Below are positions 12,218 through 36,088 of a stretch of DNA of 64,000 bases, piece after piece. Origin of the DNA: Candidatus Iainarchaeum sp. (GTDB lineage Archaea > Iainarchaeota > Iainarchaeia > Iainarchaeales > GCA-2688035); contig JAQTNI010000001.1 in NCBI GenBank assembly GCA_028713935.1, forward strand, positions 1,464-65,463. Direction: 5' to 3'. Position 1 is the stretch's first letter. The number at the start of each line of letters is the position of its first letter. Both the position numbers and the translations under genes were made by a program. Under the pieces are notes generated by a model. It did not search any database. It was not told the origin of the DNA and saw only the letters and a list, made by a program, of their open reading frames with translations.

Positions 12218-13525
12218 ATGGATATCACTGTTGTTGGCACTGGCTATGTCGGCCTTGTTGCGGGAACCTGTTTTGCGGATATGGGAAACAGGGTTTTCTG
12301 CGTTGACATTGACAGCAAAAAAATTGGCATGCTGAATGATGGCAAATGCCCCATTTATGAGCCTGGGCTTGAGCCGCTTATTGAAAAAAATGTGAAGGCA
12401 AAAAGGCTTTTTTTCACTACTGACATAAAAAAGGCGATTAATGAAACGGAAATTATTTTTATTGCGGTGGGCACTCCGCCAAAGCCGAATGGCGATGCAG
12501 ACCTCAGCTTTGTGGAGAATGTTGCAAAAACAATTGCAGAGACAGCCACAGAACCGAAAATTGTTGTTGAGAAAAGCACTGTTCCTGTTGAAACAGGCGA
12601 GAGAATTGCAGCTGTCCTGAAACTGTACAATCCGCACAATGTTGTTTTTGAAGTAGTAAGCAACCCAGAGTTTTTAAGGGAAGGCTCTGCTGTAAAGGAT
12701 TTTTTGGTGCCTGACAGGATTGTTATTGGCGCAAGCAGCGAGCATGCGCGCAAGAAACTGGGCGAGCTTTACTCCCCATTGAAGGCAAAAATCCTTTTTA
12801 CTGATGTGAAAAGCGCTGAAATAATAAAGCACGCGAGCAACAGTTTTTTGGCAACAAAAATTTCTTTTATAAATGCAATTGCAGACATCTGCGACAATAC
12901 CGGGGCTGATGTTAAGCTTGTTGCGGAAGGAATGGGTCTGGATGCGAGAATTGGAAAATCCTTTTTGAATCCGGGAATAGGGTATGGGGGCTTTTGCTTT
13001 CCGAAGGATGTTGAGGCTTTTATCAGGATTGCGGAAAAAAAAGGCTATGATTTCAGGCTTTTGAAGGAAGTCCAGGAAATAAACCATGCACAGAGAAAAA
13101 TTTTTGTAAAAAAGATTGAGCAACAGTTATGGAACCTGAACAACAAGAAAATCTGTGTGCTGGGGCTGGCTTTCAAGCCGAACACTGATGATATGAGGTT
13201 TGCCCCTAGCATTGACATTATTAAGATGCTTCAGGATGAGGGTGCAAAAATTTTTGCCTATGACCCAGTTGCAATGGAAAGGGCAAAATCTGAAATCAGG
13301 GGAATTGAATTCTGCAGCAATGCGTATGCAGCCGCAAAAGATGCCGAGGCATTGCTTGTTTTGACTGAATGGCAGGAATTTTTGGAACTTGATTTCAAGA
13401 AAATCAGGGCTTCAATGAAAACCCATTTCCTTTTTGACGGAAGAAACTGCCTTGATTCAAAAAAAATGATTTCTCTTGGCTTTAAGTATTTTGGGATGGG
13501 TTCCCAGGGCAATAATTGCCTTTGA
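12218..13525 (+). CDS. ugd: UDP-glucose 6-dehydrogenase
   Basis: MDITVVGTGYVGLV Rossmann motif and the GGFCFPKD active-site Cys. GGAGGG RBS upstream. The ORF-track start at 11429 is antisense read-through. Confidence 0.9.
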   Translation: MDITVVGTGYVGLVAGTCFADMGNRVFCVDIDSKKIGMLNDGKCPIYEPGLEPLIEKNVKAKRLFFTTDIKKAINETEIIFIAVGTPPKPNGDADLSFVENVAKTIAETATEPKIVVEKSTVPVETGERIAAVLKLYNPHNVVFEVVSNPEFLREGSAVKDFLVPDRIVIGASSEHARKKLGELYSPLKAKILFTDVKSAEIIKHASNSFLATKISFINAIADICDNTGADVKLVAEGMGLDARIGKSFLNPGIGYGGFCFPKDVEAFIRIAEKKGYDFRLLKEVQEINHAQRKIFVKKIEQQLWNLNNKKICVLGLAFKPNTDDMRFAPSIDIIKMLQDEGAKIFAYDPVAMERAKSEIRGIEFCSNAYAAAKDAEALLVLTEWQEFLELDFKKIRASMKTHFLFDGRNCLDSKKMISLGFKYFGMGSQGNNCL

Positions 13526-16290: not shown

Positions 16291-18669
16291 TTGGTGTTTT
16301 TTTTGCTTAAAAAAATGCTTTTTTTGCTCTGCCTTTTGCTTTTGTCTTCAAGTGCCTTTGCAGTGATATCACACGACTCTCTGAAGGTTTTTGCTGTCAC
16401 TGAAGACGGGCAGACAGCAATGACTGCAAATCTTGGCCTTACAATTGAAGCCGGCACAGGAAAAGTCTGGAGCAGTGTTGAGCCTCTTATTGGAACTTCA
16501 ACGCAGACAACTGAAAAGGCAGCTGTCCAGGTTGCAAAAAATTATTCTCCAAGCGTTTCTTCTTTTGACTACAAATTTGACATTAACAGCAATGCATCTC
16601 TTGTTGACGGCCCAAGCGCGGGCGCGGCAATGGCACTGCTTACCATTTCAATGCTGACTGACAAGCACATCCCTGAAAATGTCGGGATTACAGGAACAAT
16701 AACAAATGAAGGGGGAGTGGGGCAGGTTGGCGGTGTTTTCAAAAAAGCACAGGAAGCAGCGCGCATTGGAATAAAACTTTTCATGATTCCTGCAGGGGAA
16801 TCAAAGCAGATTATGACTGGGCAAAATGGCGCAGAATATGTCAATCTTGTCGATTATGCGCCTGCAAATTGGGGCATGAAAGTTGTTGAAGTAAGCAATA
16901 TTGACCAGGTTTTAAAATTCGCATTTTCAGACATCCAAAGCATTGATGTGAATGCAAACCAGGAATTGCCTGTTTTTGTTCCAAAGCCAGTTTCTGTTTC
17001 GGACAATGTTTACAAAATGCATGATTTGACAGAGGGTTACATAAAAAGGGCTTCAGAAGCGCTTACCCATGCAAGAAAAAGTCTTACAGGGACGCTTTTG
17101 AATGATGCAGATGCCACCGAAGCAATGCTTGCAGCATTGACAAACGCTGAAAAAAATTTGCAGGACGCAAAAATGCTTTTTGACCAGAACTATTTTTACA
17201 GCGCTGCAAACTATGCCTTTTTGGCGCAGGTTGACGCAATGTTTGTCGATGATTTAAGCCAAAACCCCTCTCTTATTGACCCTTCTTCAACTTTTTTGGA
17301 TTTGAAGCTGCTTGACCTGAAAAAAGACGCGGGTTCACTTGAAAAAGACCTGAATGATTTTGTCCAGATTGAAGGCTGGGAATGGCACATTGCTGCGCAA
17401 CAGAGGCTTGCCTGGGCAGAACAAAAAATTGATTCCCTGATAAACAAAAAAACAATTGTAATAAACATTGACGGAACCACTGCAAGTTCCCTTGTGGAAT
17501 TGCACGATTATGAGTTTGCAGTTGCCTGGCTTTCCGTTGCAAAAGATTTTTCCTCGCTGGCACAGGAATCAACAAAAAAAGTCCGCTCAAAGCCAATGTT
17601 CAATGAGGAAATAAACACTTACATAATCAATGCGGAAAACAATCTTTCCTCAATTCCGCAGGATTCTTCAGAGGACATAACAAGAAGGATTGAAACAGCC
17701 AAAAAATCAAGAGACCTTGGCAGAAGCGCTGCTTCTCTTTTTGATGCCGCCTCCGCCTTTGCACTGTCAAATGCGGATAATTTCATTAAAAACAAGGACC
17801 TGAACACACTGGAAACAGTGTTAAGGCAAAAATCCTCTGATTTGCAGAAAAAGCTTGACACGAAGGGCAATGGTTTTGTCTGGGCAAGGCTTTATCTTGA
17901 CCATGCAAATTATTATCTGCAGGGAATTGAATTTTACAAGTCAAAAGGCCTGAATGCGCAGGCGCTTGAAATGGCGCAAAGCGGAATTTCAATTGTTTTT
18001 CTCTCCGAAGAAATTTTCAATGCGTCTGAAACAGCGGGAAATTATTATTCCAATGTTCCCGCATCAGACCTTTCAGAAAACATCCGCCCTTTACTGCCGA
18101 ATTACTTCAATCCCGCGGTTATTGCCGCGCTCATTGCAGTGATAATCTGCCTTGCCCTGCTGTTGTTTTTCATGCACAGGCAGGCTTCTGCTTCCAACTC
18201 GGAAGACAAAAAAATCAGCCTTGAAAAGGCAAAAGCAAGGCTTGACAGGCTGTTTGCAGACAAAAAAATTTCTTATGAAAAATTCCTTGAAATGAATTCA
18301 ATACTTGAAAGCAGAAGCAAAGAAATTGATTTGGACAGGGAAGCATTAAGCCAGACAACTGTAAAGGCAGACAAAATGCGCTTTGAGCTCCAGGCGCTTA
18401 AAAGGACTCTTGCAGAGCTTGAAAGGCAGAAAAAATCAGGCCTGATAACAAAAAAAGACTTTGAAAAAACAGTTTCAAAAATCAATTCAAAATCAGGCTA
18501 TCTTGAAAAAGCCCTTGTTGAAAGAAAAAAAGACGCAGCAGCAGAAGAAGCCAAGATAAAGCTTGAAACAAAAGAATATTCAAGCGAAGCAAAAGAAATG
18601 TTAAAATCAGGAAAAAAAGAAATCAACCGCAAATGGCAAAAAGCAAAAAAAACAAAATCCAAAAACTGA
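16291..18669 (+). CDS. Secreted or membrane-anchored protein with Lon (S16) protease domain, helical region, one TM helix and a Lys/Glu-rich coiled-coil tail
   Basis: Signal peptide. Lon catalytic-domain motifs DGPSAGAAM (Ser) and KKAQEAARIGIK (Lys). TM helix AVIAALIAVIICLALLLFF near residue 610. Confidence 0.7.
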   Translation: MVFFLLKKMLFLLCLLLLSSSAFAVISHDSLKVFAVTEDGQTAMTANLGLTIEAGTGKVWSSVEPLIGTSTQTTEKAAVQVAKNYSPSVSSFDYKFDINSNASLVDGPSAGAAMALLTISMLTDKHIPENVGITGTITNEGGVGQVGGVFKKAQEAARIGIKLFMIPAGESKQIMTGQNGAEYVNLVDYAPANWGMKVVEVSNIDQVLKFAFSDIQSIDVNANQELPVFVPKPVSVSDNVYKMHDLTEGYIKRASEALTHARKSLTGTLLNDADATEAMLAALTNAEKNLQDAKMLFDQNYFYSAANYAFLAQVDAMFVDDLSQNPSLIDPSSTFLDLKLLDLKKDAGSLEKDLNDFVQIEGWEWHIAAQQRLAWAEQKIDSLINKKTIVINIDGTTASSLVELHDYEFAVAWLSVAKDFSSLAQESTKKVRSKPMFNEEINTYIINAENNLSSIPQDSSEDITRRIETAKKSRDLGRSAASLFDAASAFALSNADNFIKNKDLNTLETVLRQKSSDLQKKLDTKGNGFVWARLYLDHANYYLQGIEFYKSKGLNAQALEMAQSGISIVFLSEEIFNASETAGNYYSNVPASDLSENIRPLLPNYFNPAVIAALIAVIICLALLLFFMHRQASASNSEDKKISLEKAKARLDRLFADKKISYEKFLEMNSILESRSKEIDLDREALSQTTVKADKMRFELQALKRTLAELERQKKSGLITKKDFEKTVSKINSKSGYLEKALVERKKDAAAEEAKIKLETKEYSSEAKEMLKSGKKEINRKWQKAKKTKSKN

Positions 18670-18672
18670 TTC

Positions 18673-21666
18673 TTATTGCACTGCCTGTTCCGCATTCATG
18701 GAATCCATTTGTTCCCTTAATTTTAATCCCACTACGCTGCTTTTCTGCTTGTTTAAAGCAACACCAATTATCTGGCTTGCATTCTGTATCAAAGGGTCGT
18801 TATGGGTTACAACAATAAACTGGGATTTTTTGCTCATTTCTTTTATCACATTCACCATTTTTGCTGAATTTTCCTTGTCAAGCGCCGCATCTGCCTCGTC
18901 AAAAATGTAAAAAGGAGAAGGCTCATAAAGCTGTATCGCAAAAAGGAACGCAAGCGCAGTAAGAGTTTTTTCCCCTCCGCTCATTGCATCAATATTTTTC
19001 ATTGACGCGCCTTTGTGCTTTGACTCAATCACTAATCCCGATTCCAATGGGTTTTCAGGGCTGCTGAGTGACAATTGCCCGAAGCCCCCGAACAATTCCA
19101 AAAACATTTTTGAAAAATTCCTGTTCAATTCGTTAAAGCAGTTCATGAAAAAAGTTGTCCTTTTCACTTCAATTTTCTGCATCAAATCCATTATTGCAAG
19201 CTTTTCCTCGTCAAGCTTTGCAAGCTTCTGCCTTACATCAATTACTTCCTGCTTCAATTCATTGAAAGAGTCAACTGCCTTCATGTTTATTGCGCCAAGC
19301 TCTGCAATCCTTTTTTCAATGTCAATTATGCGCTTCTGAAGCTGTTTTTCCTCCATATTGCTGATTTTTGGGACATTTGCATACTGTGCAAATTCCTCGC
19401 TTAAATCGGAAAGCCTGACTTCAAGCTTTGAATTGTCAATTTTTATTTCATTTGCCTGCTGCTCCAGCCTTTTGATTTTCTGCTGCAAAGAATTTTTTCT
19501 TTCAAAGGAAGCAGAAATTTTTTCGTCAATTCCGCTTTTTTCCTCAAAAAGCTTTTTGCTTTCCTTTTCTGATTTTTTCATTTCTTCCTGCAGGGAAACA
19601 ATTGTGTTGCCAAGCAGCCTTATGCTTTCAGCTGTTTTTTCAATGGCAGCTGACATTTCACTGTTTGCTTTTTTCAGCTGGGAAATTTCCTCTTCAACAA
19701 TTTTTTTTTCTTCGGAAGAGCGTTCCTTTCCCCTTTGAAACCCGCTTTTTTTTTGTTCAAGCAGCCCAAGCCTCAATTGAATGTCAGTAATGCTGTTTGC
19801 AAGGCTGGAAACTTTTTCAAAGCCAATTTCGGCCTTGAATTCCCTTGTTTCAATTTCTTTTTCCATTTTTTTTGCTTTTGCGGAAGAAAGAAGAGCCTCG
19901 AGTTTTTGTGCTTCCCTTTCCCTTTGTTCAAGTGAATCAGCGCAAAGCTCTTTTGCAATCCTGTCTTTTTTTGCGCTTAAAGAAGAAAATTTCTGCTTCA
20001 GCTCTGCAAGATTTGCTGTTTCAAATTCCAATTCCCTCATTATTTCAAAAATGCCTTCAAGCCTTGCTTTTTTTGCATCAAGCTTTTTTGCCTGCTCAGC
20101 AAAAATCCCTGATTGCACATTCAGGCCGTTAAGCAAATCCTGTTTTTTTTCAACAAGCATTTTCTTTTTTTCAATTGTCAGCCTGCTTTCGCAAACAGGG
20201 CAGGAAGCAGCCTGTTTCTGCAGTTCATTAATAGCGTTTTTTGCCTCGATTATCCTTGATTCGTTTGACTTTGAATCCACAATGCTTTTTTTTATTTCAT
20301 TTGAAACAATTTTCAGCTCTTCCTTTATGTCAGGGTGTTCCTGCATTAACTTGTCAAGGCTGTGCTTTTTTTCATCTTTCCTCGTGAACTCGCTTTTTGC
20401 CTTTTCAAGCTCTGCGCTTGTTTCCTGCAAGGCAAGCTTTTCAAATGCAATTTCCCTCTGCAAAGCTGAAATCTCGGCTTTTTTTTCAAACAAAATTTTC
20501 TGGGCTTTTGACTCTTCTTCAGCAAGCAAAACAAGCGCCCTGTCCATTTCCTTCAGAGCGCTTTCTTTTCCCATGCCTTTTTCTTCAAGCTCTTTTTTTC
20601 TCTGCCTTAACACATCAAGCTGCCTTTTGAGTTCAGGCAGCTCTTTTTCAATTGCGGCAAGCTCTTTTTCCCTGTTGTTTTGCTCATTCAGAAAAGCCTT
20701 TATTTTTTCTTCCAGATAAAAAATCCTTGAATTGTTTTTTTCCAGCAAACGCTTCTTGTTCTCGCTGTCCTGCACAGCAAGCATTTTCTCGGCTTTTTTT
20801 TCCTCTGTTTTTATTCCAAAATTTGCAAAAGCCTCTTTGCTGCCGGCAAGAATAAGCCTGTTTATTTCTTCTGAGCGCTCCTGCCATTGCCTTATTTTTG
20901 CATCCTCTTCTGAAAACTTTGCCTGCCAGGAATTCTGTTCTTCGCCAACACTAAAAACCTTGTCAGTGTTTTCCTTTCTCAATGCAGTGATTTTTTCTAT
21001 TTCAAGGTGCAATGCAGTTGCCTTTACCTGTTTTTTTTCATCCTGCAATTGCCCAAATTCCATTGCTGCCTGCCTGTCCCTTTCAAGGCTTTGCAGATAA
21101 TTTTCCCTTTCAGCCATTACTATTGCGGCTTCTTTTATGCGCATTTCAACCTTTTCAAGGTTTTTCAATGCCTCTGCTTTTTTTTCGTCAAACTCATGCA
21201 GGCCGGCAAGCTCATCGATTATCCGGCGCCTTTCTTCAGGAGTCATTTCAATCAGCCTTGTTGCATCTCCCTGCACAACAATATTATGCCCGCTTGGCCG
21301 GATTCCCAATTCTCCAAGAAGAGAGCTAATCTCATTCAAAGTTTTTCTCTGGTCATTAAGCCTGCAAATGCTTTTGCCCTGCTTGTCAATCATCCTGCTA
21401 ATGTCATATTTCTGGTCATTGTGTTTTATTGTCAAATCGACTTTTGCATAATTTTCCATTGCGCCATTATTGACAAGCTCTGACAATTTCGCCGCTCTTA
21501 ATGTTTTAAGCGAAGTAGCTCCCATTACAAACATCAATGCATCCAGAATGTTTGTTTTTCCGCAGCCATTGCCGCCCACAATTGCAGTGAAACCATCCGA
21601 AAAAGGGATTTCAGCTTTCTTAAAGCTCTTGAAATTCTTTAAAACAAGTTTTTGGAGTTTAACCAT
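18673..21666 (-). CDS. smc: SMC-family ATPase with SMC-type head and a central Rad50-like zinc hook in place of a hinge
   Basis: N-terminal FTAIVGGNGCGKTNILDA, QGD...ERRRIIDELAG, and C-terminal LSGGEKTLTALAFLFAIQ...FYIFDEADAALD...QFIVVTH. The middle is all coiled-coil with CPVCESRLTIE. Confidence 0.8.
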   Translation of the reverse strand: MVKLQKLVLKNFKSFKKAEIPFSDGFTAIVGGNGCGKTNILDALMFVMGATSLKTLRAAKLSELVNNGAMENYAKVDLTIKHNDQKYDISRMIDKQGKSICRLNDQRKTLNEISSLLGELGIRPSGHNIVVQGDATRLIEMTPEERRRIIDELAGLHEFDEKKAEALKNLEKVEMRIKEAAIVMAERENYLQSLERDRQAAMEFGQLQDEKKQVKATALHLEIEKITALRKENTDKVFSVGEEQNSWQAKFSEEDAKIRQWQERSEEINRLILAGSKEAFANFGIKTEEKKAEKMLAVQDSENKKRLLEKNNSRIFYLEEKIKAFLNEQNNREKELAAIEKELPELKRQLDVLRQRKKELEEKGMGKESALKEMDRALVLLAEEESKAQKILFEKKAEISALQREIAFEKLALQETSAELEKAKSEFTRKDEKKHSLDKLMQEHPDIKEELKIVSNEIKKSIVDSKSNESRIIEAKNAINELQKQAASCPVCESRLTIEKKKMLVEKKQDLLNGLNVQSGIFAEQAKKLDAKKARLEGIFEIMRELEFETANLAELKQKFSSLSAKKDRIAKELCADSLEQREREAQKLEALLSSAKAKKMEKEIETREFKAEIGFEKVSSLANSITDIQLRLGLLEQKKSGFQRGKERSSEEKKIVEEEISQLKKANSEMSAAIEKTAESIRLLGNTIVSLQEEMKKSEKESKKLFEEKSGIDEKISASFERKNSLQQKIKRLEQQANEIKIDNSKLEVRLSDLSEEFAQYANVPKISNMEEKQLQKRIIDIEKRIAELGAINMKAVDSFNELKQEVIDVRQKLAKLDEEKLAIMDLMQKIEVKRTTFFMNCFNELNRNFSKMFLELFGGFGQLSLSSPENPLESGLVIESKHKGASMKNIDAMSGGEKTLTALAFLFAIQLYEPSPFYIFDEADAALDKENSAKMVNVIKEMSKKSQFIVVTHNDPLIQNASQIIGVALNKQKSSVVGLKLREQMDSMNAEQAVQ

Positions 21667-21792
21667 AAAAAAATTCACTTTGTAAGAGGCATTAAGGCAA
21701 TTCTGCCAATAGGTTTCTTAACTGAAAATCTTTTTAAATGGATTTTTAAGTTCTGGGGACTTGTTTATTTGGCCTTAAATAAACCTTCCCAA

Positions 21793-22521
21793 TCAGAGAG
21801 GCCGTTTTTTTGGTTTATTTTGCTTATTTTTTGCTCTTTGTTCCGCTTTAAATTTTCTGTAAAATTCTCTATCTTTTTGAGGATATGGTTTTACATTATG
21901 CGAATCAATTGTTGTAATGCCTGCTTTCCTAAATGTTTGAAGATATTGCCGAACCTGCCGCTTGTATTCCCCCGGAGATGAACACGCTCCAAAAAGGAAG
22001 AAAAGGGACGGCAAAACGCCAACAGGTTTTGCTTTTTTTCTTTCAGCGATTCTTTTTAATCTCTTTGCAACCCAAACCCTCCAATTCTCTCCGACCTGTT
22101 CAGAAAATAGTTTAAGCTCATTTTGTCTCTTGCGCTCTCCCTGAATGTGGTTAATATGCAATTCCAGTTTTCCTCCTTGGCTCTGAAGAAAAAAACCAAT
22201 AGTCGCTATTCTGTGTTGATTATTATCCTGAATGCCTAATTGAATAGGACATTCCACATGAATTAAGTTTTTTGACAACTTAATTTGAAAAGAACCTACT
22301 TTCAGTGGTTTTTGAGCAGCCAAATTTTGAAACAAATCACTAGTCAAAAGAGCGCTCGCCAAAGCATCCTGGGATGAAAGAGTTTCTGGGAGCTGCTTCA
22401 AAGTCTGTTCACAAACAAAAAAAGAATCAACTGGAATTTTTTTTGCCTCTAATTGAGCCAAAACCTCAGTTTGTTCATAGAAGAAATATAAGTTGTGTTC
22501 AGATATAAAAATCAATAGCAC
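21793..22521 (-). CDS. Hypothetical protein upstream of smc
   Basis: 242-aa ORF. No Mre11 phosphoesterase or ScpA motifs were recognised. Confidence 0.35.
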   Translation of the reverse strand: MLLIFISEHNLYFFYEQTEVLAQLEAKKIPVDSFFVCEQTLKQLPETLSSQDALASALLTSDLFQNLAAQKPLKVGSFQIKLSKNLIHVECPIQLGIQDNNQHRIATIGFFLQSQGGKLELHINHIQGERKRQNELKLFSEQVGENWRVWVAKRLKRIAERKKAKPVGVLPSLFFLFGACSSPGEYKRQVRQYLQTFRKAGITTIDSHNVKPYPQKDREFYRKFKAEQRAKNKQNKPKKRPL

Positions 22522-22578: not shown

Positions 22579-23367
22579 TTATTCCCTGTCAAGGTAATAA
22601 AAGGCAAGCGCAAAATTCACAAAAGCAATTTGTATTGCCCAGAAAACAGCAATAATTATTCCCACTGCTATTTCATCAACAACCAAATCCGACAAAACAG
22701 AGCCAATAAAACCGATTATCCCGCTAATTATTAAAACAATTATCAGGAATAAAACAGTTGTCCAGAATTTTTTGTCGGAAAATTCCCATGACTTTCCAAT
22801 TGCAGCCTTTAATTTTTCTCCCCCGCAAGCCATTGCGGGAATTGTAAAAGCCAGTTTTACAAGAACAAAAACAATTGCTATTGCAAGCAAAAACACCAAA
22901 ACAAGTGCCCAGATTCCTGCAGAGGGCATTATCAAAAACAATATCCAAAAAATTACCATGATAAGCGCAGCCAGCACTATTTCAAATAGGATTAATGAAA
23001 GAATCCGGCCTCCCTGTTCAATTGTCTGTGAAACAGCACTGCCAATTGAAGGCTTTTTTTCAGACAGCTCTTTTGCATAATTTGAATAAAAAAAGCCTGT
23101 CACAGTAACCACTATTAAGGAAACAAGGCCTGCGAGCAGCAATGGAACAAGGCTTCCAGCATACAAATTAAAAAACTGGAATGGCAATTCGCCTAAGCCC
23201 GATTCAGGAATATTCCCCAAAAAAACAGCGTTTATTGCCAATTCAACAAAAAAATCAATTACCGCAAAAAAAACAACTGCAATGACAGCAGCCGCAGCAA
23301 GCCCAGGAACAAGGCAAACAGGGTGCTTTGCAATTTCCTTAAACCCTTTTGCAAAAACTCCAAGCAA
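22579..23367 (-). CDS. Polytopic membrane protein (hypothetical)
   Basis: Six or more hydrophobic helices. Confidence 0.5.
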   Translation of the reverse strand: MLGVFAKGFKEIAKHPVCLVPGLAAAAVIAVVFFAVIDFFVELAINAVFLGNIPESGLGELPFQFFNLYAGSLVPLLLAGLVSLIVVTVTGFFYSNYAKELSEKKPSIGSAVSQTIEQGGRILSLILFEIVLAALIMVIFWILFLIMPSAGIWALVLVFLLAIAIVFVLVKLAFTIPAMACGGEKLKAAIGKSWEFSDKKFWTTVLFLIIVLIISGIIGFIGSVLSDLVVDEIAVGIIIAVFWAIQIAFVNFALAFYYLDRE

Positions 23368-23433: not shown

Positions 23434-23787
23434 TCATTTTTCCTTGTATCCAAATTTTTTGTTGTATTTGTCATGGCTTAAGATATCAAGGACAAAAGCT
23501 ATTATTTCTATTTGTGTTTCTCCTTCTGTTAAAGCGTAAAACATTCGCCAATAATTTGGCAAGCCAACCCAAAAAAGATTTTTTATTCCGTATTTTTCCT
23601 TGTATTCTTTTGGAATAAGGTGTTTATTTATTGGTTCGCCGTAATGAATGTTTGCTTTTATCAATTCGACTTTTCTGCCAACTGCTGCCAAAATTGTCTT
23701 TTCAATCTTTGAATGTTCTGCTTCTTTGTTCAAATAGTTGTAAACTTCTTCTGCTTCCGGGGACAATTTTATTCTGACGATTTTCAT
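23434..23787 (-). CDS. RelE/ParE-superfamily toxin-like protein
   Basis: 117 aa with a toxin-like C-terminus (...IIAFVLDILSHDKY). 4-bp overlap with the upstream small gene. Confidence 0.5.
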   Translation of the reverse strand: MKIVRIKLSPEAEEVYNYLNKEAEHSKIEKTILAAVGRKVELIKANIHYGEPINKHLIPKEYKEKYGIKNLFWVGLPNYWRMFYALTEGETQIEIIAFVLDILSHDKYNKKFGYKEK

Positions 23788-24002
23788 AATTCAAGGCCTT
23801 TTGCAATAGCGCGTTTAAGGTTGGCATTAGAATTTGTAATCCAGGTAATGCCCTTCAAACTCACGGCAATCTTGTTGCTGTCTTCCAAATACTGCAAAAC
23901 CACTTTAAGGGTGTTATGGTTAACCTGCTTTGGAAGCCTTCTTTTAAGCTCTGCAATTGAAAGCGCGCTCTCATCAGCCCGCTTCAAAACATTCTCAACC
24001 AT
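23784..24002 (-). CDS. Putative antitoxin / small DNA-binding protein
   Basis: Small ORF overlapping the toxin start (ATGA). The ORF track extends to 24083. Confidence 0.4.
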   Translation of the reverse strand: MVENVLKRADESALSIAELKRRLPKQVNHNTLKVVLQYLEDSNKIAVSLKGITWITNSNANLKRAIAKGLEL

Positions 24003-24142
24003 AATCACTGTATTCAAAGTGGGAGAATGCTCTAATTTCTGTTCCTTTTGAACCAAAACACTTCTCGACAAAAACATCACCAAAAGTTATTAACTAATAA
24101 GTAATTAGCACGAAAGAATATAAAAAGGTTTTGGTTACTTTA

Positions 24143-25264: not shown

Positions 25265-28200
25265 GTGTTTGTTTTGGCTGACAAAAAAGGTTCTTCGGAA
25301 GCTGGAGAAGAGATTTTTTCAGATGTTTTTGGCGTTGACGAGGATGAAAAGCGCGCCAGGGAAAGGCTTGCCAAGGAAACAGCTGAAAAAGAAGCAAAGC
25401 AAAAAGCCTCAAAAGGCGAGAAAGAGGAAAAAGAATTGCCTTCTGAAAAAGAAGAGCCTGAAATTGTTGCCTTGAAGAAAACCCAAAAAAAGCCTGCCCA
25501 AAAAATTCCAGTTGAGGCCAAAGCCACTGTTACTGATTCTCCCGAGCAAAAGGAATTGAAGCAGAAAATCAAAAAGGTTATTCTGGCAAAGGCAGCAAAG
25601 GCCGCTGAAAAGGATTCTGCAAAAATTTTTGACAAGGAAATTGACATCAAGGAAAAAGGAGTTAAGGAAAAAGAAAAAGAAGAAGAGCCAGAGCCTGAAG
25701 AAGAAAACGAAAAAGAAGATTCAAAAGAAATTGTGCCAAAATTTGCCCTTAATTTTTTGCAGGATTCAGAAGGAAGCGTTTTCATTGGCAGGAAAACAAG
25801 TGTTTTCCAGGAATATGGCAATGAAGCAGGCCTGTATATTGGGAATATTGCAGAGCCTTCCTTTGAAGGAAAAAAAGTTTTATTGGATGGTTTAAATCCG
25901 CATGTTGTTTTTGTCTGCGGGGCAAGAGGCAGCGGAAAATGCCTTACTGGAGACACTCTAATTGCGCTTGAAGATGGTACAGTAAAGCCGATAAGAGAAC
26001 TGGAACATGATAATCAAAAAGTTCTTTCAATGGATTCTGAAATGAAAATTGTTGCCACTCAAAAAAGCGGTTTTTTTAAAAGGAGAGTAAATAAGATTCT
26101 GGAAGTTAACTTAAAAAGTGGCAAAAAGATTAGGTTGACCCCTGAGCATCCTTTGTTTACAATGCAAGGCTGGAAGCCTGCGCAGGAGTTGAGAGAAGGA
26201 AGCAGAATTGCTGCTGTTAATAAACAGGTTGGGCTTGGTTTTTCAAGTAGCAGGCAGGAAAGCGTTTGTTATTCTGCCGCAAGGGCAAAATTAATGCAAA
26301 TTAATTTGCTTAACAAGGATGAGTTGGTGCAAAATGCTTCTTCAAATATTTTTTGGGACGAAATAACTGAAAAAACAGAATTATCAGGAGAATTTGAAGT
26401 TTTTGATATCAGTGTTCCAACACACCACAATTTTGTTGCAAATGATATTATTGTCCACAACAGTTATCTGCTTGGAGTGCTTGCTGAAGAGCTTGCCTTG
26501 AAGAATCCCAATGTCGGCCTTATTGTAATCGACCCTGTAGGGGTTTTTTGGGGAATGAGGCATCCTAACAAGGAAGAAAAAGAGCTTGAGGCTCTTGCAA
26601 AAACAGGCCTTCTTCCGAACGGCCTGAATAATCTCAAAGTTTTTATTCCAAAGGGAATGAAGGACAAGGTTCCGAAAAACACTTTTGATGCGGCTTTCAG
26701 CATGCCTGCTTCTCTTCTAACTGCAGAAGACTGGTGCCTAACTTTTGGCATTGACAGGTTTTCCCCAAGCGGCCTGCTCCTTGAAAAAGTTTTGCACAAG
26801 ACAAAGCACGGCTATAAGACAAAAGAAGGAAAATATGTAAAATCAGAGGATGTTTTTGATTTGGAGGACATTATTGAATGCCTGCATAATGACAATGAAA
26901 TAAATTCAGCCGAGCTTGGCTATAAGGCCGATTCAATAAGGGCCCTTGCTTCCAGGTTTGATGCCGCAAAAGCCTGGGGAGTTTTTGATGAAAGAGGAAC
27001 TCCTTTGATTGAAATTTCAAAGGAAAACCAGTTGACAATTATTGACACTTCTTTTTTGGATGACAATGTTTCCGCGCTAATAATCGGGATTCTTGCAAGA
27101 AGAATTCTTGCCGCGAGAAAATTAAGCACTCGCAGGGAAGCTGCTTCAAAATTCAAGGATGATTCTGTTGAAAACCTAATGGAATTGGGAATCCCTCCCA
27201 CATGGCTGTTTATTGATGAGGCACACACTTTGATTCCAAGCGGAAACATGAAAACTCCTGCAAGCAGTGCCCTTGTTGAATATGTGAAGCAGGGAAGGCA
27301 GCCTGGCTGCAGCCTTGTTTTTGCAACACAGCAGCCGAGCGCAATTGACACCCATGTTTTAAGCCAGCTTGACATTATTGTGGCGCACAAGCTTGTTTTT
27401 GACGATGACATAAAGGCAGTTTACAAGAGAACTCCAACTATTATTCCAAAGCAATACAAGAACAGCAATTTTATCAAAACACTGCCAGTTGGAATGGGAA
27501 TTGTTGGAGATAGAAGAGAAGAAACCTCGCGCGCTTTTGTAATGAAAATCAGGCCAAGAATGTCACAGCACGAAGGCAGGGAAGCAGTTACTTCTGAAAG
27601 GTCTTCACAGGTTTTTGACAAATCCAAGGTTCTTGCCCTTGCAATTGGAATGGCTTATGCCCAGATTGAAAGAAAGCCGACAGAAGCCTCTTACATTAGC
27701 CAGATTGTCCAGACTCTTAATACAAAATACAAGTCAACTTTGCAGCTTTCAGATGTTCTTGATGCGCTTGAAAAAAAAGGCGTCGGAATCAATCCCAAAA
27801 CTTCTGTTTTAAGCATTCCGGACGAGGAAGCAGAGCATGAAGTAGTGGAAGAAGAAGTCCGTGAAACAGAAGAAGAAGTGCAAAAAGAAGTGAAATCAGT
27901 TTCACCAGAAGAAAGCATTTCACTAATGGCTTTTCCAGCCAATCTTCAGGAAGAATCAGCAAGAAGGCTTTTTGACAGGCTGAGAAAGAAAAAAACTCTC
28001 GGCTTGTTTGGAAAAGAAGAGCTGATTGAAAAAATTTCCTTGAAATATTTGCCAATTTTCCATGTTACTTTCAATGTTTTCAATGAAAAAGGCTCTTTCA
28101 ATATTGCAGAGGCCTATGTTGATTCCCATTCAGGGGAATTTTTGAATTTTGATTTTGAACAAAAACAATTTGTTGAATCCCACGGCTTAAGCCTGCTTTC

Positions 28201-28657
28201 GGAAATGGGCACTTTGGAATCAAGAATCCTGCTTTTGCTTTCCGAAAAAAAATCCTCTTTTGAAGACCTTCAAAACAGGCTTGGAGAAGAAGAAAAAAGC
28301 ATTGAAAAGGCAATTGATTCGCTTATGGAAGCAAATGCAATTGCGCTTGAACAGTCAAAAGAAAAAGACTGGTTTTTTTTGAAAACAAAAATTGATTTGC
28401 CAAAAAGCCCCTTGCATTCCCTGCTTACAAGCGTGAAAAAACTGCCAGTGGAAGAAATTTCCGCTTCCAATCTTGAAAAGCCGCAGTTTGACAAAACAAA
28501 ATTCCAGGAGGTTTTTTCAAAAATCTGGGGAAAAGTCCAGATAAAAAGCATTTCAGAAGTTTTTTTGCCAAGATATGAGGCAATTATCAGGAAACAGGAC
28601 AATTCAATAAGGGCAATTTCAGTTGACGCCTACTCAGGAAAAGAAATTGCGGACTAA
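25265..28657 (+). CDS. HerA/FtsK-superfamily ATPase (DUF87-like) with an acidic Lys/Glu-rich N-terminal extension, an intein in the P-loop and a ~370-aa C-terminal extension
   Basis: Walker A is GARGSGK[intein]SYLLG. Walker B LFIDEAHTLIP. HerA-type ATQQPSAIDTHVLSQLDIIVAHKL. Confidence 0.7.
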   Translation: MFVLADKKGSSEAGEEIFSDVFGVDEDEKRARERLAKETAEKEAKQKASKGEKEEKELPSEKEEPEIVALKKTQKKPAQKIPVEAKATVTDSPEQKELKQKIKKVILAKAAKAAEKDSAKIFDKEIDIKEKGVKEKEKEEEPEPEEENEKEDSKEIVPKFALNFLQDSEGSVFIGRKTSVFQEYGNEAGLYIGNIAEPSFEGKKVLLDGLNPHVVFVCGARGSGKCLTGDTLIALEDGTVKPIRELEHDNQKVLSMDSEMKIVATQKSGFFKRRVNKILEVNLKSGKKIRLTPEHPLFTMQGWKPAQELREGSRIAAVNKQVGLGFSSSRQESVCYSAARAKLMQINLLNKDELVQNASSNIFWDEITEKTELSGEFEVFDISVPTHHNFVANDIIVHNSYLLGVLAEELALKNPNVGLIVIDPVGVFWGMRHPNKEEKELEALAKTGLLPNGLNNLKVFIPKGMKDKVPKNTFDAAFSMPASLLTAEDWCLTFGIDRFSPSGLLLEKVLHKTKHGYKTKEGKYVKSEDVFDLEDIIECLHNDNEINSAELGYKADSIRALASRFDAAKAWGVFDERGTPLIEISKENQLTIIDTSFLDDNVSALIIGILARRILAARKLSTRREAASKFKDDSVENLMELGIPPTWLFIDEAHTLIPSGNMKTPASSALVEYVKQGRQPGCSLVFATQQPSAIDTHVLSQLDIIVAHKLVFDDDIKAVYKRTPTIIPKQYKNSNFIKTLPVGMGIVGDRREETSRAFVMKIRPRMSQHEGREAVTSERSSQVFDKSKVLALAIGMAYAQIERKPTEASYISQIVQTLNTKYKSTLQLSDVLDALEKKGVGINPKTSVLSIPDEEAEHEVVEEEVRETEEEVQKEVKSVSPEESISLMAFPANLQEESARRLFDRLRKKKTLGLFGKEELIEKISLKYLPIFHVTFNVFNEKGSFNIAEAYVDSHSGEFLNFDFEQKQFVESHGLSLLSEMGTLESRILLLLSEKKSSFEDLQNRLGEEEKSIEKAIDSLMEANAIALEQSKEKDWFFLKTKIDLPKSPLHSLLTSVKKLPVEEISASNLEKPQFDKTKFQEVFSKIWGKVQIKSISEVFLPRYEAIIRKQDNSIRAISVDAYSGKEIAD
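25940..26461 (+). mobile_element. Mini-intein (174 aa, no homing-endonuclease domain) inserted after the Walker A lysine
   Basis: Starts Cys-LTGDTLIALEDG (Hint block A), ends ...NDIIVHN followed by Ser +1. Removing it restores GxxxxGKS. Confidence 0.8.
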
Positions 28658-28667
28658 AAAATTTTTT

Positions 28668-29543
28668 TTACCAAACTTTGTAATCCCAATATTTTCCTTT
28701 TTTTGGAGACCTGACAGTTGCAATGTTTTTTTTGTCCAACAAGTCTATGCTGATTATTTTTGGTGCTTTTGCCATTAACGGCCTGCCCAACACAAGATTC
28801 ACTGTTTCATGTGCCTGAAGAGTTGCCGTAATATATGCCCTTTCAGGAGTTATTGCCCAGGTTTGCCTTTCTCCAGACAAATAAAATTTTCCCCACTCTT
28901 TATCGGCACCATGGGTTATTGCATATTTTACTCTTTTGCCCCTTAATTTGTGGTGCAATTTGCCTAATTCTTCGCTTGGAATATCCAAATCAAGGCTTTT
29001 TGTAGGAAGATTGAACATTGTTTCATAATCAATGCCTTTTGGCAGCACAGTTGAAACAAAAGCCCTGTAAGGCGGCCCTCCGGACATTGTAACCACAGGA
29101 ATTCCTAATTTTCTTGCAACCCTGTGGATTATAACCCTTGAATACATGTTGTCTATTCCCTGGACTATAACATTGATTCCTTTGAAAGCACTTTCTGCAT
29201 TTTTTGTGTTTACCATTTCATTCATTACCTCTATTTTTACAGTCTTTGCAGTTGCATCATTCAAAAACTCGAGCATATTTTTTGTTTTCGGCCTGCCTAA
29301 TTTTGAATATACTGCAAAAGAATTTCTGTTGAGATTAGAAAGCTCTAAGTTATCCTGGTCAATTATTCTGATTAGGCCAAAACCAATTCTTGCAAGAACT
29401 GCTGCAGCAAGTTCCCCAACGCATCCTTGTCCTGCAACACAAATTTTTGCTTTCCTGATTTTTTCCTGTTCTGTTTTTTTGTAGATTCCAAAGTTTCTGT
29501 CTCTAATGAGGTAATAAAGCTCTAATTTGTCTTGGCCAGACAA
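28668..29543 (-). CDS. ThiF/MoeB/E1-like adenylyltransferase family protein
   Basis: KICVAGQGCVGELAAAVLARIGFGLIRIIDQD dinucleotide-binding motif of E1-like enzymes. Confidence 0.7.
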   Translation of the reverse strand: MSGQDKLELYYLIRDRNFGIYKKTEQEKIRKAKICVAGQGCVGELAAAVLARIGFGLIRIIDQDNLELSNLNRNSFAVYSKLGRPKTKNMLEFLNDATAKTVKIEVMNEMVNTKNAESAFKGINVIVQGIDNMYSRVIIHRVARKLGIPVVTMSGGPPYRAFVSTVLPKGIDYETMFNLPTKSLDLDIPSEELGKLHHKLRGKRVKYAITHGADKEWGKFYLSGERQTWAITPERAYITATLQAHETVNLVLGRPLMAKAPKIISIDLLDKKNIATVRSPKKGKYWDYKVW

Positions 29544-33550: not shown

Positions 33551-33711
33551 TGCGTCCGCCGGGATTCGAACCCGGGTTACGAGCTCTTTCCTGCTTCAAT
33601 TTTGTTTATTATTTGTTGAAGTTCTTTCTTTTGGGCAACTTACACTTTTCTTTCTTTCAAGAAAGAAAAGGGCAGTGGGAAGCTCGAATCCTACCGCTAG
33701 ATTACAGACGC
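33551..33711 (-). tRNA. tRNA-Gly (anticodon CCC) with a ~90-nt intron
   Basis: Acceptor GCGTCTG/CGGACGC (one G-U pair), D-loop AGCGGTAGG, anticodon stem CGAGC/GCTCG, loop TTCCCAC, T-arm CCGGG-TTCGAAT-CCCGG. Intron is roughly 33585-33674. Confidence 0.75.
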
Positions 33712-34551
33712 GTTTTCTTTTTTTTCTGTTGTGCCTGTTTCTGTTTGCTGTAATTGTGCTGATGGCGCTATTAAGTATGCCTGTTGGTTTTCTATTTTTA
33801 TTTGCATTCCTGGCAGGTAGATTTTTACTAGGTTTTTTTCTGTGGGAGGAAATTTTTCCGCCAGTGCGAGCAATTGCAGTGTTTGTTTTTTTTCTATTAC
33901 AAGGTTGTTTTGCTCTGTTTTTGCCTGCAGAGATTCTTTTATTTGGTTTGCAAAGTTTGGGTTTGTGCATTCAATGCGGATTTGTTGCAGTTCTTGTTTT
34001 TCAATTATTGCAAAAATTGTGGGAATTGTTTCCTGTGAAAGAGAAATTTTTTTGAAGTCATTAAAATTCAGTTCTTTTAGTGCTGTTATCTGGTGCAAGA
34101 GCACGTCTGAAAGGTATTTTAGTTGTTGTGCCCGTTTGTCTGTTTTTTCCTTTAGTTCAAGCAAATCGGAAATGTAAAAATTGCTGCTTGTTTTTGCTGC
34201 TTTCAGCAAATCGTTGTCTGCTTTGCTTCTTTCAATGAGGGTTTGCAGCATTTTTACTATTGTTTCAACCTCTTCAACAGGGTTTTTTGATGCCATGCTT
34301 TCATTTAGCCTTGTCAATAGCTTGTTTTTCATTTCAGAATTGATTTCAACAAGGCCCTTGTCTGTTACAAAAATCTTGTTTGCCTGCCTCTGCACAACGC
34401 CAATTGCAGCCAAATCTTTCAAAGTCCTACTTAAAGCAGCGCGAGCAGAATTAATGCTGCCATATTCAGAAGTGATTCTGTTAAGCAGCTCGTTGTAATC
34501 AATTCCGGGATTCTGCTTAAGAATTAACAAAAAATTGTTTCTCTGGGTCAC
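33697..34551 (-). CDS. Winged-helix DNA-binding protein with a long helical C-terminal region
   Basis: N-terminal wHTH-like segment. Its stop overlaps the first ~15 nt of tRNA-Gly. Confidence 0.45.
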   Translation of the reverse strand: MTQRNNFLLILKQNPGIDYNELLNRITSEYGSINSARAALSRTLKDLAAIGVVQRQANKIFVTDKGLVEINSEMKNKLLTRLNESMASKNPVEEVETIVKMLQTLIERSKADNDLLKAAKTSSNFYISDLLELKEKTDKRAQQLKYLSDVLLHQITALKELNFNDFKKISLSQETIPTIFAIIEKQELQQIRIECTNPNFANQIKESLQAKTEQNNLVIEKKQTLQLLALAEKFPPTEKNLVKIYLPGMQIKIENQQAYLIAPSAQLQQTETGTTEKKENASVI

Positions 34552-35671: not shown

Positions 35672-36088
35672 TCAGTTTTGCCCTATTCCACAAAGTTTTT
35701 TCCATTGCTCTTCCACTGTCCTTTCGTTCACATATGGCTTGTGGTGCCTGAATCCGCCTCCAAATCCTGCTGGGATGTGCAGTAATTCGTGAATCAGGGT
35801 TTTTGTTTTGTCATCCTCGCTTAGCCTGTCAAATTTTTCCGAAAGCAGTTCAATCACATAAAAAGGCTCTGTTTTCATTCCAAGCTGCATTGCTTTTCCT
35901 AACCCATGTATGCGTGCAATTGTCCTTCTTGTTTTTGTCCCTGCACTTTTAAGACAGGCAATTCTTTCAGGCGCAATATGGTGAAAACCGAGCTTTTCAA
36001 CAAGTTCCCTTGCCTTCAAAGTCCATTCTTCTGAAAAAGCGTATTTCACAAAAAAAACCTTATAACATTTCAGAAATTTTTTTTCCAA
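35672..36088 (-). CDS. Putative zinc metallopeptidase (HExxH)
   Basis: HELLHIPAGFGGGFRHH motif. Confidence 0.45.
   Translation of the reverse strand: MEKKFLKCYKVFFVKYAFSEEWTLKARELVEKLGFHHIAPERIACLKSAGTKTRRTIARIHGLGKAMQLGMKTEPFYVIELLSEKFDRLSEDDKTKTLIHELLHIPAGFGGGFRHHKPYVNERTVEEQWKKLCGIGQN

What the first reader, a model, noticed from the sequence alone, without database searches (positions are those of the whole stretch)
25265..28657. HerA/FtsK-like ATPase with a 174-aa mini-intein in the Walker A loop and ~570 aa of unexplained N- and C-terminal extensions
Removing residues Cys...His-Asn (nt 25940-26461) restores a canonical P-loop GARGSGK-SYLLG. The intein has Hint blocks (CLTGDTLIALEDG ... 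NDIIVHN|S) and no room for a homing endonuclease. The host protein has HerA hallmarks (LFIDEAHTLIP, VFATQQPSAIDTHVLSQLDIIVAHKL). It also carries a 200-aa Lys/Glu-rich acidic N-terminus and a ~370-aa C-terminal region of unknown fold. It is stand-alone, with no NurA, Mre11 or conjugation genes nearby, and is convergent with an E1-like ThiF gene. This architecture is atypical for repair HerA and could mark a defence-type or DNA-translocation ATPase.
Basis: partly seen in the sequence, partly recalled or inferred. Interest (0 to 1): 0.65.

Follow-up and report, generated by a model that had tools for sequence, protein, structure and literature searches.

The report
Intein-split HerA-like ATPase of DPANN archaea
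A conserved but unstudied DNA-motor-like ATPase of tiny DPANN archaea (Iainarchaeota) is interrupted in its ATP-binding loop by a self-splicing mini-intein; the intein is an ordinary kind of selfish element, while the host protein has a tail found nowhere else and sits near the chromosome-organising SMC gene.

Summary
ORF 25265-28657 (+) encodes 1130 aa. Residues 226-399 are a 174-aa intein (Pfam Intein_splicing, 2.6e-24). Removing it restores the Walker A loop GARGSGK|SY. An intein-less relative differs at the DNA level by exactly this 522-nt indel. The mini-intein derives from a ~437-aa LAGLIDADG intein found at the same site in sister lineages, minus its endonuclease core.

The host is a HerA-clade ATPase. 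Its best structural matches are archaeal HerA at about 16% identity, and Walker A, Walker B, the arginine finger and the sensor motif all line up. It fails the membership tests for repair HerA, anti-phage HerA, FtsK and VirB4.

The "unexplained extensions" are family hallmarks. They are present in hundreds of full-length homologues from Iainarchaeota (Diapherotrites), and a compact sister branch occurs in Micrarchaeota. The N-terminus is a Lys/Glu-rich low-complexity region. The C-terminus models confidently (pLDDT 90) as winged helix, acidic linker, alpha/beta domain, winged helix, alpha/beta domain. This tail is found only fused to such ATPases.

The context is housekeeping, not defence. The ThiF neighbour is incidental. 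In 12 related loci (11 genomes) the gene lies within about 8 kb of SMC.

The most likely role is a soluble hexameric DNA translocase in chromosome maintenance, but this is inferred. Interest is moderate.

The parts
25265..28657 (+). Complete precursor gene (1130 aa including the intein). The likely true start is the TTG at 25274. A TATA-like box TTTAATATA lies at 25233.
25265..25732 (+). N-terminal Lys/Glu-rich low-complexity region (extein aa 1-156). It is variable in length across the family. It contains two conserved short motifs: DVFGxDEDEK near the N-terminus, and the Lys-rich segment KIKKVILAKAAKAAEK...GIKExG (helix inferred).
25733..25918 (+). Small conserved beta-rich N-domain that leads into the P-loop strand. 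It may be a reduced HAS-barrel; this is inferred from its position and strand content.
25919..25939 (+). N-terminal half of the Walker A loop, GARGSGK, which ends the N-extein.
25940..26461 (+). 174-aa class-1 mini-intein. It has Cys1 (CLTGDT), block B LTPEHP, block F VFDISVP..NFVAN and block G DIIVHN, followed by the +1 Ser. The LAGLIDADG core is deleted. GC content is 37%, against 43% in the adjacent ATPase core.
26462..27586 (+). Rest of the HerA-like ATPase core. It begins with the +1 Ser that completes GK|S and includes a helical insertion between Walker A and Walker B.
27203..27226 (+). Walker B motif WLFIDEAH.
27287..27340 (+). KQGRQPGCSLVFATQQPS. This holds the arginine-finger motif (GRQPG, aligning to GRKYG/GRKFG of HerA) and the sensor motif (ATQQPS, aligning to SQRPS). 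It is nearly invariant in the family.
27620..27814 (+). Winged helix 1. Its third helix is acidic and hydrophobic.
27824..27904 (+). Acidic linker predicted to be disordered (pLDDT below 50).
27917..28177 (+). Alpha/beta domain 1 (beta-alpha-beta-hairpin-beta-beta), ending in the motif YVDSHSGEF. It is PepSY-like by topology only.
28187..28381 (+). Winged helix 2, of the TrmB/MarR/MecI type.
28451..28627 (+). Alpha/beta domain 2 (beta-alpha-beta-beta), ending in the motif SVDAYSGKEI.
33697..34551 (-). Context only: 'u284', a protein specific to Iainarchaeota. Pfam gives only weak hints of an N-terminal winged helix, and nothing else is recognised. In most relatives it lies convergent and immediately downstream of the ATPase. 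Here it is displaced about 5 kb.
18673..21678 (-). Context only: the SMC gene. Together with the GPDPase_memb-like gene at 22579-23367 and the Lon_C-like gene at 16291-18669, it forms a block that stays within about 8 kb of the ATPase in 12 related loci (11 genomes).

Best explanation
The gene encodes a lineage-specific, chromosomally encoded, housekeeping-type ATPase of the HerA clade of the FtsK-HerA superfamily. The family is characteristic of Iainarchaeota (Diapherotrites) and has relatives in Micrarchaeota.

Shown:
- A selfish LAGLIDADG intein invaded the codon junction between the Walker A Lys and Ser. Full-length ~437-aa copies persist at the same site in sister lineages.
- In this genome the intein has lost its endonuclease core and is now a 174-aa mini-intein.
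- All canonical splicing residues are intact.
- The P-loop is physically split in the precursor.

Inferred:
- The protein can bind ATP only after the intein splices itself out.
- The mature ~106-kDa protein most likely assembles into a HerA-like hexameric ring that uses ATP to translocate double-stranded nucleic acid through its pore.
- The family-specific tail (winged helix, acidic linker, alpha/beta domain, winged helix, alpha/beta domain) and the Lys/Glu-rich disordered N-terminus act as adaptors to DNA or partner proteins.
- The protein is soluble. It is conserved like a core gene and is persistently linked to the SMC gene block in an FtsZ-containing organism. Its most likely job is therefore chromosome maintenance (segregation, resolution or repair), not defence or conjugation.
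For: Intein:
- Pfam Intein_splicing 2.6e-24.
- Boundaries are C1 and HN|S.
- Intein-free alleles read GSGK|SY in 108 of 120 homologues.
- The window differs from L004 by an exact 522-nt indel.
- The alignment to the 435-438-aa LAGLIDADG inteins at the same site shows a clean internal deletion of about 263 aa, with blocks A, B, F and G conserved.
- Seven further occurrences share this site. These are P0004, P0031, P0105, L020, L023, L025 and the Micrarchaeota protein P0186. P0004 and L020 carry identical intein sequences and may be one allele.

ATPase:
- Pfam DUF87 3e-14 and HerA_C 4.7e-7.
- The AF2 model has pLDDT 88.6.
- Foldseek's top hits are all HerA: 9x1m at 4.8e-18, then 4d2i.
- Walker A, Walker B, the Arg finger and the sensor align to HerA 8xau and 4d2i.

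Family and conservation:
- More than 100 homologues have 99-100% coverage.
- Column identity in the core is 70-95%.
- The C-terminal module gives only 71 hits in 1.84 billion representatives. The ten checked with Pfam all carry a HerA-type ATPase, and the rest are full-length family members or short fragments.
- A short Micrarchaeota branch shares the module.

Context:
- SMC, a membrane protein, a Lon_C-like protein and u284 lie next to the gene in 12 loci (11 genomes) whose SMC is only 37-57% identical to the window's.
- FtsZ is in the window.
- No transmembrane segment is present.
Against: - No experiment exists for any member of the family.
- Oligomeric state, substrate and splicing activity are all inferred.
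- The ATPase and its conserved neighbours are not co-transcribed. u284 is convergent and the SMC block lies on the other side of it. A ribosomal-protein gene (L44e) sits inside the block. The linkage may therefore be inherited synteny and not functional.
- The linkage was not seen in the two Micrarchaeota loci.
- Both winged helices sit in a net-acidic tail (pI 5.6), and winged helix 1 has an acidic third helix. Direct DNA binding by the tail is therefore uncertain.
- The best profile hit in the defence library is mad8 at 2e-18.
Confidence: 0.6

Rival explanations
1. It is simply the organism's DNA double-strand-break repair HerA. It would work with NurA/Mre11/Rad50 encoded elsewhere, decorated with lineage-specific tails.
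For: The closest solved structures are the T. kodakarensis HerA-NurA complex and S. solfataricus HerA. The catalytic motifs align.
Against: It scores 27-28 bits against the NCBIfam HerA equivalogs, whose cut-offs are 800-970. No NurA, Mre11 or Rad50 was seen among the called genes flanking the five loci with gene tables, or in the window. In the other loci only homologues of the window's own neighbours were sought. Identity to HerA is only about 16%. The N-terminal barrel that docks NurA is much reduced. The tail is unique to this family.
Confidence: 0.15
2. It is the motor of an anti-phage defence system, of the Sir2-HerA, DUF4297-HerA or MADS type.
For: PADLOC gives mad8 at 2e-18 and several HerA defence models at 1e-15 to 1e-7, all partial. 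Several of the top structural hits are defence HerAs.
Against: It scores 31-32 bits against HerA_antiphage cut-offs of 800-850. No effector or other mad genes are adjacent in any locus. The core is very strongly conserved, and the chromosomal position is syntenic among aaRS, ribosomal and SMC genes. This is the opposite of the usual defence-island pattern.
Confidence: 0.05
3. It is a VirB4/TraG/coupling-protein-like ATPase that moves DNA or protein between the DPANN cell and its host.
For: The short-branch relatives give weak TrwB_AAD_bind (7e-9) and P-loop_TraG hits. One relative (L003) has a TrbC/T4SS-pilin gene 2.4 kb upstream.
Against: The protein has no transmembrane segment. T4SS genes are absent from the window and from the other loci. 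The L003 pilin lies downstream of an integrase gene at the start of the locus, so it may belong to a separate integrated element. Foldseek ranks HerA structures first.
Confidence: 0.1
4. The interrupted gene is a dead allele. The degenerate mini-intein no longer splices, and the ATPase is non-functional in this genome.
For: The homing endonuclease has been lost, which is a late stage of the intein homing cycle.
Against: The 1130-codon frame is intact. Cys1, the Thr and His of block B, the Asp of block F, the terminal His-Asn and the +1 Ser are all conserved. The exteins remain 86% identical to an intein-less allele with no sign of decay.
Confidence: 0.05

Closest known systems
Archaeal HerA (the HerA-NurA end-resection motor, e.g. 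PDB 9x1m and 4d2i)
   Same: It shares the RecA-like core fold with a helical insertion. Walker A, Walker B, the GR(K/Q)xG arginine finger and the (S/T)Q(R/Q)P sensor align. HerA gives the best Foldseek hits (4.8e-18 and 1.1e-16).
   Different: Identity is about 16%, and the HerA equivalog cut-offs are missed by a wide margin. No NurA/Mre11/Rad50 neighbourhood is present. The N-terminal barrel is reduced. The protein adds a ~156-aa Lys/Glu-rich N-terminus and a ~356-aa tail of winged helices and alpha/beta domains.
P-loop inteins of archaeal and bacterial ATPases (MCM site a, DnaB site b, RFC-S site a; Novikova et al. 2016, PMC4760082)
   Same: The intein sits inside the Walker A loop of a DNA-related ATPase. 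LAGLIDADG-containing and mini forms both occur at one site. The distribution is sporadic among otherwise intein-free alleles.
   Different: The host protein family is new: a HerA-clade ATPase of Iainarchaeota and Micrarchaeota. No HerA entry appears in that survey's text.
FtsK/SpoIIIE
   Same: Both belong to the same superfamily of ring translocases. Both have a motor followed by a C-terminal winged helix, as in the FtsK gamma domain, and a long low-complexity linker-like region. The organism divides with FtsZ.
   Different: The Pfam FtsK_SpoIIIE hit falls below its cut-off. There is no N-terminal membrane domain. No homology between the winged helices and FtsK gamma was demonstrated. Structurally the protein is closer to HerA.
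Anti-phage HerA systems (Sir2-HerA/Nezha, DUF4297-HerA, TdpAB) and MADS mad8
   Same: The ATPase fold is the same, with partial profile matches (mad8 at 2e-18).
   Different: No effector partner is present. The gene has a housekeeping context and strong conservation. The cut-offs are not met.

Membership tests
Class-1 intein (Hint fold) | Profile match to the intein splicing domain above the curated threshold | tested here: met
   Intein_splicing scores 86.2 bits against a cut-off of 35.8 (E=2.6e-24). Hint scores 35.7 against 29.7.
Class-1 intein (Hint fold) | Catalytic residues: Cys/Ser1, block B T-x-x-H, block F Asp, terminal His-Asn, and a +1 Ser/Thr/Cys | tested here: met
   C226 is present, with LTPEHP, VFDISVP and DIIVHN|S. 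All are conserved in the six homologous inteins aligned.
Class-1 intein (Hint fold) | Precise in-frame insertion in a conserved host motif, with intein-free alleles | tested here: met
   GSGK|S is contiguous in 108 of 120 homologues. The window differs from L004 by a net 522-nt indel.
Class-1 intein (Hint fold) | Protein splicing actually occurs | not testable with these tools
   This needs expression and mass analysis.
Mini-intein (endonuclease-less) | No homing-endonuclease domain between the splicing blocks | tested here: met
   The window protein gives no LAGLIDADG hit. P0004, P0031, P0105 and P0186 carry PF14528. The alignment shows that about 263 aa are deleted.
HerA (DSB-repair helicase, NCBIfam NF040819 / NF040937) | HerA-type RecA-like core with Walker A, Walker B, Arg finger and sensor | tested here: met
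   Foldseek gives 9x1m at 4.8e-18 and 4d2i at 1.1e-16.
HerA (DSB-repair helicase, NCBIfam NF040819 / NF040937) | Score above the equivalog cut-off | tested here: not met
   27.5 and 28.3 bits, against cut-offs of 970 and 800.
HerA (DSB-repair helicase, NCBIfam NF040819 / NF040937) | Gene linkage with NurA/Mre11/Rad50 | tested here: not met
   None was found in the window within about 9 kb or among the called genes of five related loci. The rest of the genome was not examined.
Anti-phage HerA (NF042943 / NF042944; Sir2-HerA, DUF4297-HerA) | Equivalog score and an adjacent effector gene | tested here: not met
   31-32 bits against cut-offs of 800-850. No Sir2, DUF4297 or nuclease neighbour is present.
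MADS mad8 | Profile match together with other mad genes in the locus | tested here: inconclusive
   PADLOC mad8 gives 2e-18 over profile positions 17-254 of 314. No methyltransferase or other defence genes were seen nearby, but the other mad genes were not specifically searched.
FtsK/SpoIIIE | Pfam FtsK_SpoIIIE above threshold | tested here: not met
   17.3 bits against a cut-off of 24, covering the P-loop region only.
FtsK/SpoIIIE | N-terminal membrane anchor | tested here: not met
   The maximum Kyte-Doolittle 19-residue mean is 1.37, and it falls inside an ATPase-core helix.
FtsK/SpoIIIE | C-terminal DNA-reading winged helix (gamma domain) | tested here: inconclusive
   Two winged helices are present. 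No specific similarity to FtsK gamma was found, and DNA binding was not tested.
VirB4 / TraG / T4 coupling proteins | Profile match above threshold and T4SS neighbours | tested here: not met
   The window protein gives no such hits. Only short-branch relatives give weak hits. No T4SS genes lie nearby.
PepSY domain (PF03413) | Profile match above the gathering score in the alpha/beta domains | tested here: inconclusive
   There is no hit in the window protein, even at E up to 10. One relative, P0184, scores 22.2 bits against a cut-off of 24. None of ten further relatives gave a hit. The topology beta-alpha-beta-beta(-beta) and the terminal 'VDAxSGE' motif are compatible.

The most novel reading that the evidence does not exclude
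The family would be the Iainarchaeota/Micrarchaeota functional counterpart of FtsK: a soluble HerA-clade ring translocase. It would be recruited through its disordered Lys/Glu-rich N-terminus and its tail of winged helices and alpha/beta domains. It would cooperate with SMC, and possibly with the lineage-specific neighbour u284, to clear or resolve chromosomes at the FtsZ division site of ultra-small archaea. The P-loop intein could then act as a post-translational gate on this activity.
Probability: 0.15. Interest if true: 0.7.

Novelty: new variant of a known kind. Interest (0 to 1): 0.4.

Why it matters
How archaea segregate and resolve chromosomes is poorly understood, above all in FtsZ-dividing lineages that lack FtsK. 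A HerA-type motor was proposed for this role on comparative-genomic grounds two decades ago (Iyer, Makarova, Koonin and Aravind 2004, from my own knowledge).

This family offers a concrete candidate in DPANN archaea. It is a soluble HerA-clade ATPase, conserved like a core gene, with a unique adaptor tail and persistent linkage to SMC. Its confidently modelled domains could be expressed and tested.

The intein adds one more host protein to the list of ATPases invaded at the P-loop. The family also displays intein-free, full-length and endonuclease-deleted alleles side by side, which makes a tidy natural series of the homing cycle. Neither point overturns current ideas.

Tried and rejected
- **ThiF/E1 partnership: rejected.** ThiF is absent next to the gene in the closest relative, L004, and in all other loci.
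- **Second intein in the 698-aa UDP-glucose dehydrogenase ORF (11429-13525): rejected.** The N-terminal 263 aa is a spurious upstream read-through. The real start is MDITVVGTGYVG.
- **u284 as a kleisin (ScpA) or other known protein: no support.** There is no Pfam hit below E=0.004. The profile of 53 homologues finds nothing in the PDB below E=0.25.
- **u242, u117 and u99, which lie between SMC and the ATPase:** no homologues were found in related loci, and only weak Pfam hints appeared.
- **PepSY assignment of the alpha/beta domains: not confirmed**.
- **Fold searches with the tail model** returned only winged-helix matches. The AlphaFold-database library was not available, so the alpha/beta domains were never searched on their own.
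- **The genome-contig scan** was run with a single protein, so it reached only close relatives: 22 loci, those with a named taxon being Iainarchaeum or Forterrea. The wider phyletic range rests on source names.
- **Literature searches** found no description of this family.


Full report
**1. Observation**

The mechanical ORF list contains 25265..28657 (+), 1130 aa with a GTG start.

The segment CLTGDT...DIIVHN is aa 226-399, which is 174 aa and nt 25940-26461. Deleting it joins GARGSGK to SYLLG. Pfam scores the segment as Intein_splicing with E=2.6e-24 (86.2 bits against a cut-off of 35.8) and as Hint with E=9e-9. The rest of the protein matches DUF87/HerA central (3e-14) and HerA_C (4.7e-7) once it is spliced in silico.

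**2. Source organism and context**

The window is an archaeal chromosome fragment with GC content near 39%. Rfam finds two tRNAs with long introns that ARAGORN misses.

A 99% identical protein, P0001, comes from a 65.9-kb contig of 'Candidatus Iainarchaeum sp.' and is annotated 'DUF853 family protein'. It starts at the TTG at 25274.

The neighbouring genes are housekeeping or metabolic:
- Upstream: a Lon_C-like protein, SMC, a GPDPase_memb-like membrane protein, tRNA-Ala and a phosphoribosyltransferase.
- Downstream: ThiF, HAD-CofD, HD-NUDIX and an APH-like kinase.
- FtsZ sits at the start of the window.

No NurA, Mre11, Rad50, T4SS or defence effector genes lie nearby.

**3. The intein**

Among the 120 best homologues, 108 read GxRGSGK-S and four read GxRGSGK-C, the Cys marking an intein. 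The remainder have GTGK-S or are fragments.

Three further species-representative genomes (L020, L023, L025) carry ~437-aa inteins at the same site. A distant Micrarchaeota homologue, P0186, also has a P-loop LAGLIDADG intein.

The window intein aligns with the long inteins over its first 92 residues and its last ~82 residues. The ~263 residues that hold the LAGLIDADG core are missing. Blocks A (CLTGDT), B (LTPEHP), F (VFDISVP..NFVAN) and G (DIIVHN), and the +1 Ser, are all conserved, so the element looks splicing-competent.

At the DNA level the window and the intein-less relative L004 (86% protein identity) are collinear, apart from one net 522-nt insertion. Intein GC content is 37%, against 43% for the adjacent core.

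Inteins in ATPase P-loops are well documented for MCM, DnaB, RFC-S and many others (PMC4760082). The intein is therefore a new member of a known kind. It is a late, endonuclease-deleted stage of the homing cycle.

**4. The host ATPase**

An AF2 model of the spliced extein (aa 157-956) has mean pLDDT 88.6. Foldseek against the PDB returns only HerA-type proteins at the top:
- T. kodakarensis HerA-NurA, 4.8e-18.
- S. solfataricus HerA, 1.1e-16.
- Then the anti-phage HerAs, D. radiodurans HerA and TdpA.
- All share about 14-20% identity with the query.

The HMMER alignments to 8xau and 4d2i line up four motifs:

| Motif | This protein | HerA |
|---|---|---|
| Walker A | GARGSGKS | GSTGSGKS |
| Walker B | FIDEAH | YEEAH / IEEAH |
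| Arginine finger | GRQPG | GRKYG / GRKFG |
| Sensor | ATQQPS | SQRPS |

These positions are invariant or nearly so in the family.

The protein nevertheless fails every membership cut-off tried:
- HerA equivalogs: 27-28 bits against 800-970.
- Anti-phage HerA: 31-32 bits against 800-850.
- FtsK_SpoIIIE: 17.3 bits against 24.

PADLOC's best hit is mad8 at 2e-18, and it is partial. The protein has no transmembrane segment.

**5. The 'extensions'**

They are not peculiar to this gene. More than 100 homologues cover 99-100% of the 801-aa query at 49-86% identity.

| Extein region (aa) | Conservation |
|---|---|
| 161-600 (core) | 70-95% column identity |
| 600-956 (tail) | Present in all without gaps, at lower identity |
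| 1-156 (N-terminus) | Variable in length, Lys/Glu-rich, with two conserved short motifs |

The composition of the N-terminal region is given.

AF2 models the last 356 aa with pLDDT 90.3 as five parts:
- winged helix 1;
- a disordered acidic linker;
- an alpha/beta domain;
- winged helix 2;
- a second alpha/beta domain.

The alpha/beta domains end in 'VDxxSGE' motifs and have a PepSY-like topology. Pfam PepSY is seen only once, below threshold, in a relative, so this assignment is inconclusive.

A phmmer search of 1.84 billion representatives with the tail finds only 71 proteins. The ten checked with Pfam all carry a HerA-type ATPase, and the rest are full-length family members or short fragments.

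A compact sister branch of 450-540 aa lacks the N-terminal region and the helical insertion. It keeps the alpha/beta, winged helix, alpha/beta module. Its named members are mostly labelled Micrarchaeota (a few 'Marsarchaeota'), and one comes from a mine-drainage metagenome.

**6. Gene neighbourhood**

Twelve related loci (11 genomes) have SMC that is only 37-57% identical to the window's. In nearly all of them the order is as follows:
- ATPase (+);
- a u284 homologue (-), immediately downstream and convergent;
- L44e (-), seen in the three loci with called genes;
- a GPDPase_memb-like gene (+);
- SMC (+);
- a Lon_C-like gene (-).

In the window and its close relative L004 the SMC block lies upstream and inverted. 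Here u284 (33697-34551) is displaced about 5 kb by ThiF, HAD-CofD, HD-NUDIX and APH. ThiF is missing at this place in L004, so the ThiF adjacency is incidental.

u284 forms a family of 138 proteins. Every member that carries a taxon name is from Diapherotrites, Iainarchaeum or an unclassified archaeon. It has no Pfam or PDB match.

In two Micrarchaeota loci the gene sits among aaRS and glycolytic genes, without SMC.

The linkage is suggestive but not proof. The genes are not co-oriented, and a ribosomal-protein gene lies within the block.

**7. Mechanism**

Shown:
- The P-loop is physically split by an intein with intact catalytic residues.
- The mature protein has all HerA catalytic motifs and the HerA fold.
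- The tail contains two winged helices and two alpha/beta domains.
- The family is strongly conserved and sits in a housekeeping context.

Inferred:
- Splicing is a prerequisite for ATP binding.
- The protein forms a hexameric ring and translocates dsDNA.
- The tail and the N-terminal motifs act as adaptors.
- The protein works in chromosome maintenance, possibly together with SMC.

Rivals are repair HerA with NurA encoded elsewhere, a defence motor, a transfer ATPase and a dead allele. Each is weighed in its own section. None is excluded outright, but each lacks its defining context.

**8. Comparison and novelty**

It works like HerA and, more loosely, like FtsK. It is not a member of any curated HerA, FtsK or VirB4 family by the tests run here. 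Databases call it DUF853, DUF87 or 'ATP-binding protein'. Four literature searches found no description of it.

The intein is ordinary. The host family is a new variant of a known kind: a HerA-clade motor with a unique tail.

**9. Verdict**

Interest is moderate (0.4). The intein is unsurprising. The host family is a plausible but unproven candidate for a chromosome-handling motor in DPANN archaea.

Noticed in passing
window 33551-33711 (-) and 46109-46302 (+): Two tRNA genes of 161 and 194 nt, presumably with long introns. Rfam finds them (46 and 40 bits) but ARAGORN misses them. This is typical of archaea and supports the archaeal origin of the window.
   Followed up: no
window 33697-34551 (-); homologues in L001-L024: 'u284' has about 138 homologues; every one that carries a taxon name is from Diapherotrites, Iainarchaeum or an unclassified archaeon. 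Pfam gives only weak hints of an N-terminal winged helix, and there is no Pfam or PDB match. In most relatives it lies convergent and directly downstream of the ATPase gene. It may be a partner, or the adjacency may be only synteny.
   Followed up: partly
window 16291-18669 (+), 18673-21678 (-), 22579-23367 (-): A block of a Lon_C-like 792-aa protein (protease domain at aa 100-212 only, the rest unassigned), SMC and a GPDPase_memb-like membrane protein. The block is conserved across deeply diverged Iainarchaeota. The membrane-protein gene directly precedes SMC on the same strand in most loci.
   Followed up: partly
window 28668-29543 (-): The ThiF/E1-like gene is present here but absent at the same position in the close relative L004. 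It appears to be a recent local insertion. It also gives moderate hits (down to 9e-14) to PADLOC E1-E2 models.
   Followed up: partly
window 10-1035 (+): An FtsZ gene (Tubulin 1.3e-50, FtsZ_C 6e-27), so the organism uses FtsZ-based division.
   Followed up: no
window 11429-13525 (+): The mechanical ORF for UDP-glucose dehydrogenase is 698 aa. This is only because an upstream frame is open. The real protein starts near aa 264 (MDITVVGTGYVG), and there is no intein.
   Followed up: yes
window 35672-36088 (-): A small protein matches 'Putative phage metallopeptidase' PF18894 (3e-18). It lies next to a DJ-1/PfpI gene.
   Followed up: no
L003 1-8200: In another Iainarchaeota genome the region upstream of the ATPase holds a phage-type integrase, wHTH proteins, a P-type ATPase and a TrbC/T4SS-pilin-like gene. 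This may be an integrated mobile element.
   Followed up: no
window 21793-22521 (-), 23434-23787 (-), 23784-24083 (-): Three small ORFs of 242, 117 and 99 aa lie between SMC and the ATPase. They have no homologues in the related loci and only weak winged-helix hints. Their status as genes is uncertain.
   Followed up: partly
L023 9167-13777; L025 4700-8956: Relatives with the full-length ~437-aa LAGLIDADG intein at the same P-loop site. Their precursors are 1419-1537 aa, and the length of the N-terminal low-complexity region varies widely between lineages.
   Followed up: partly
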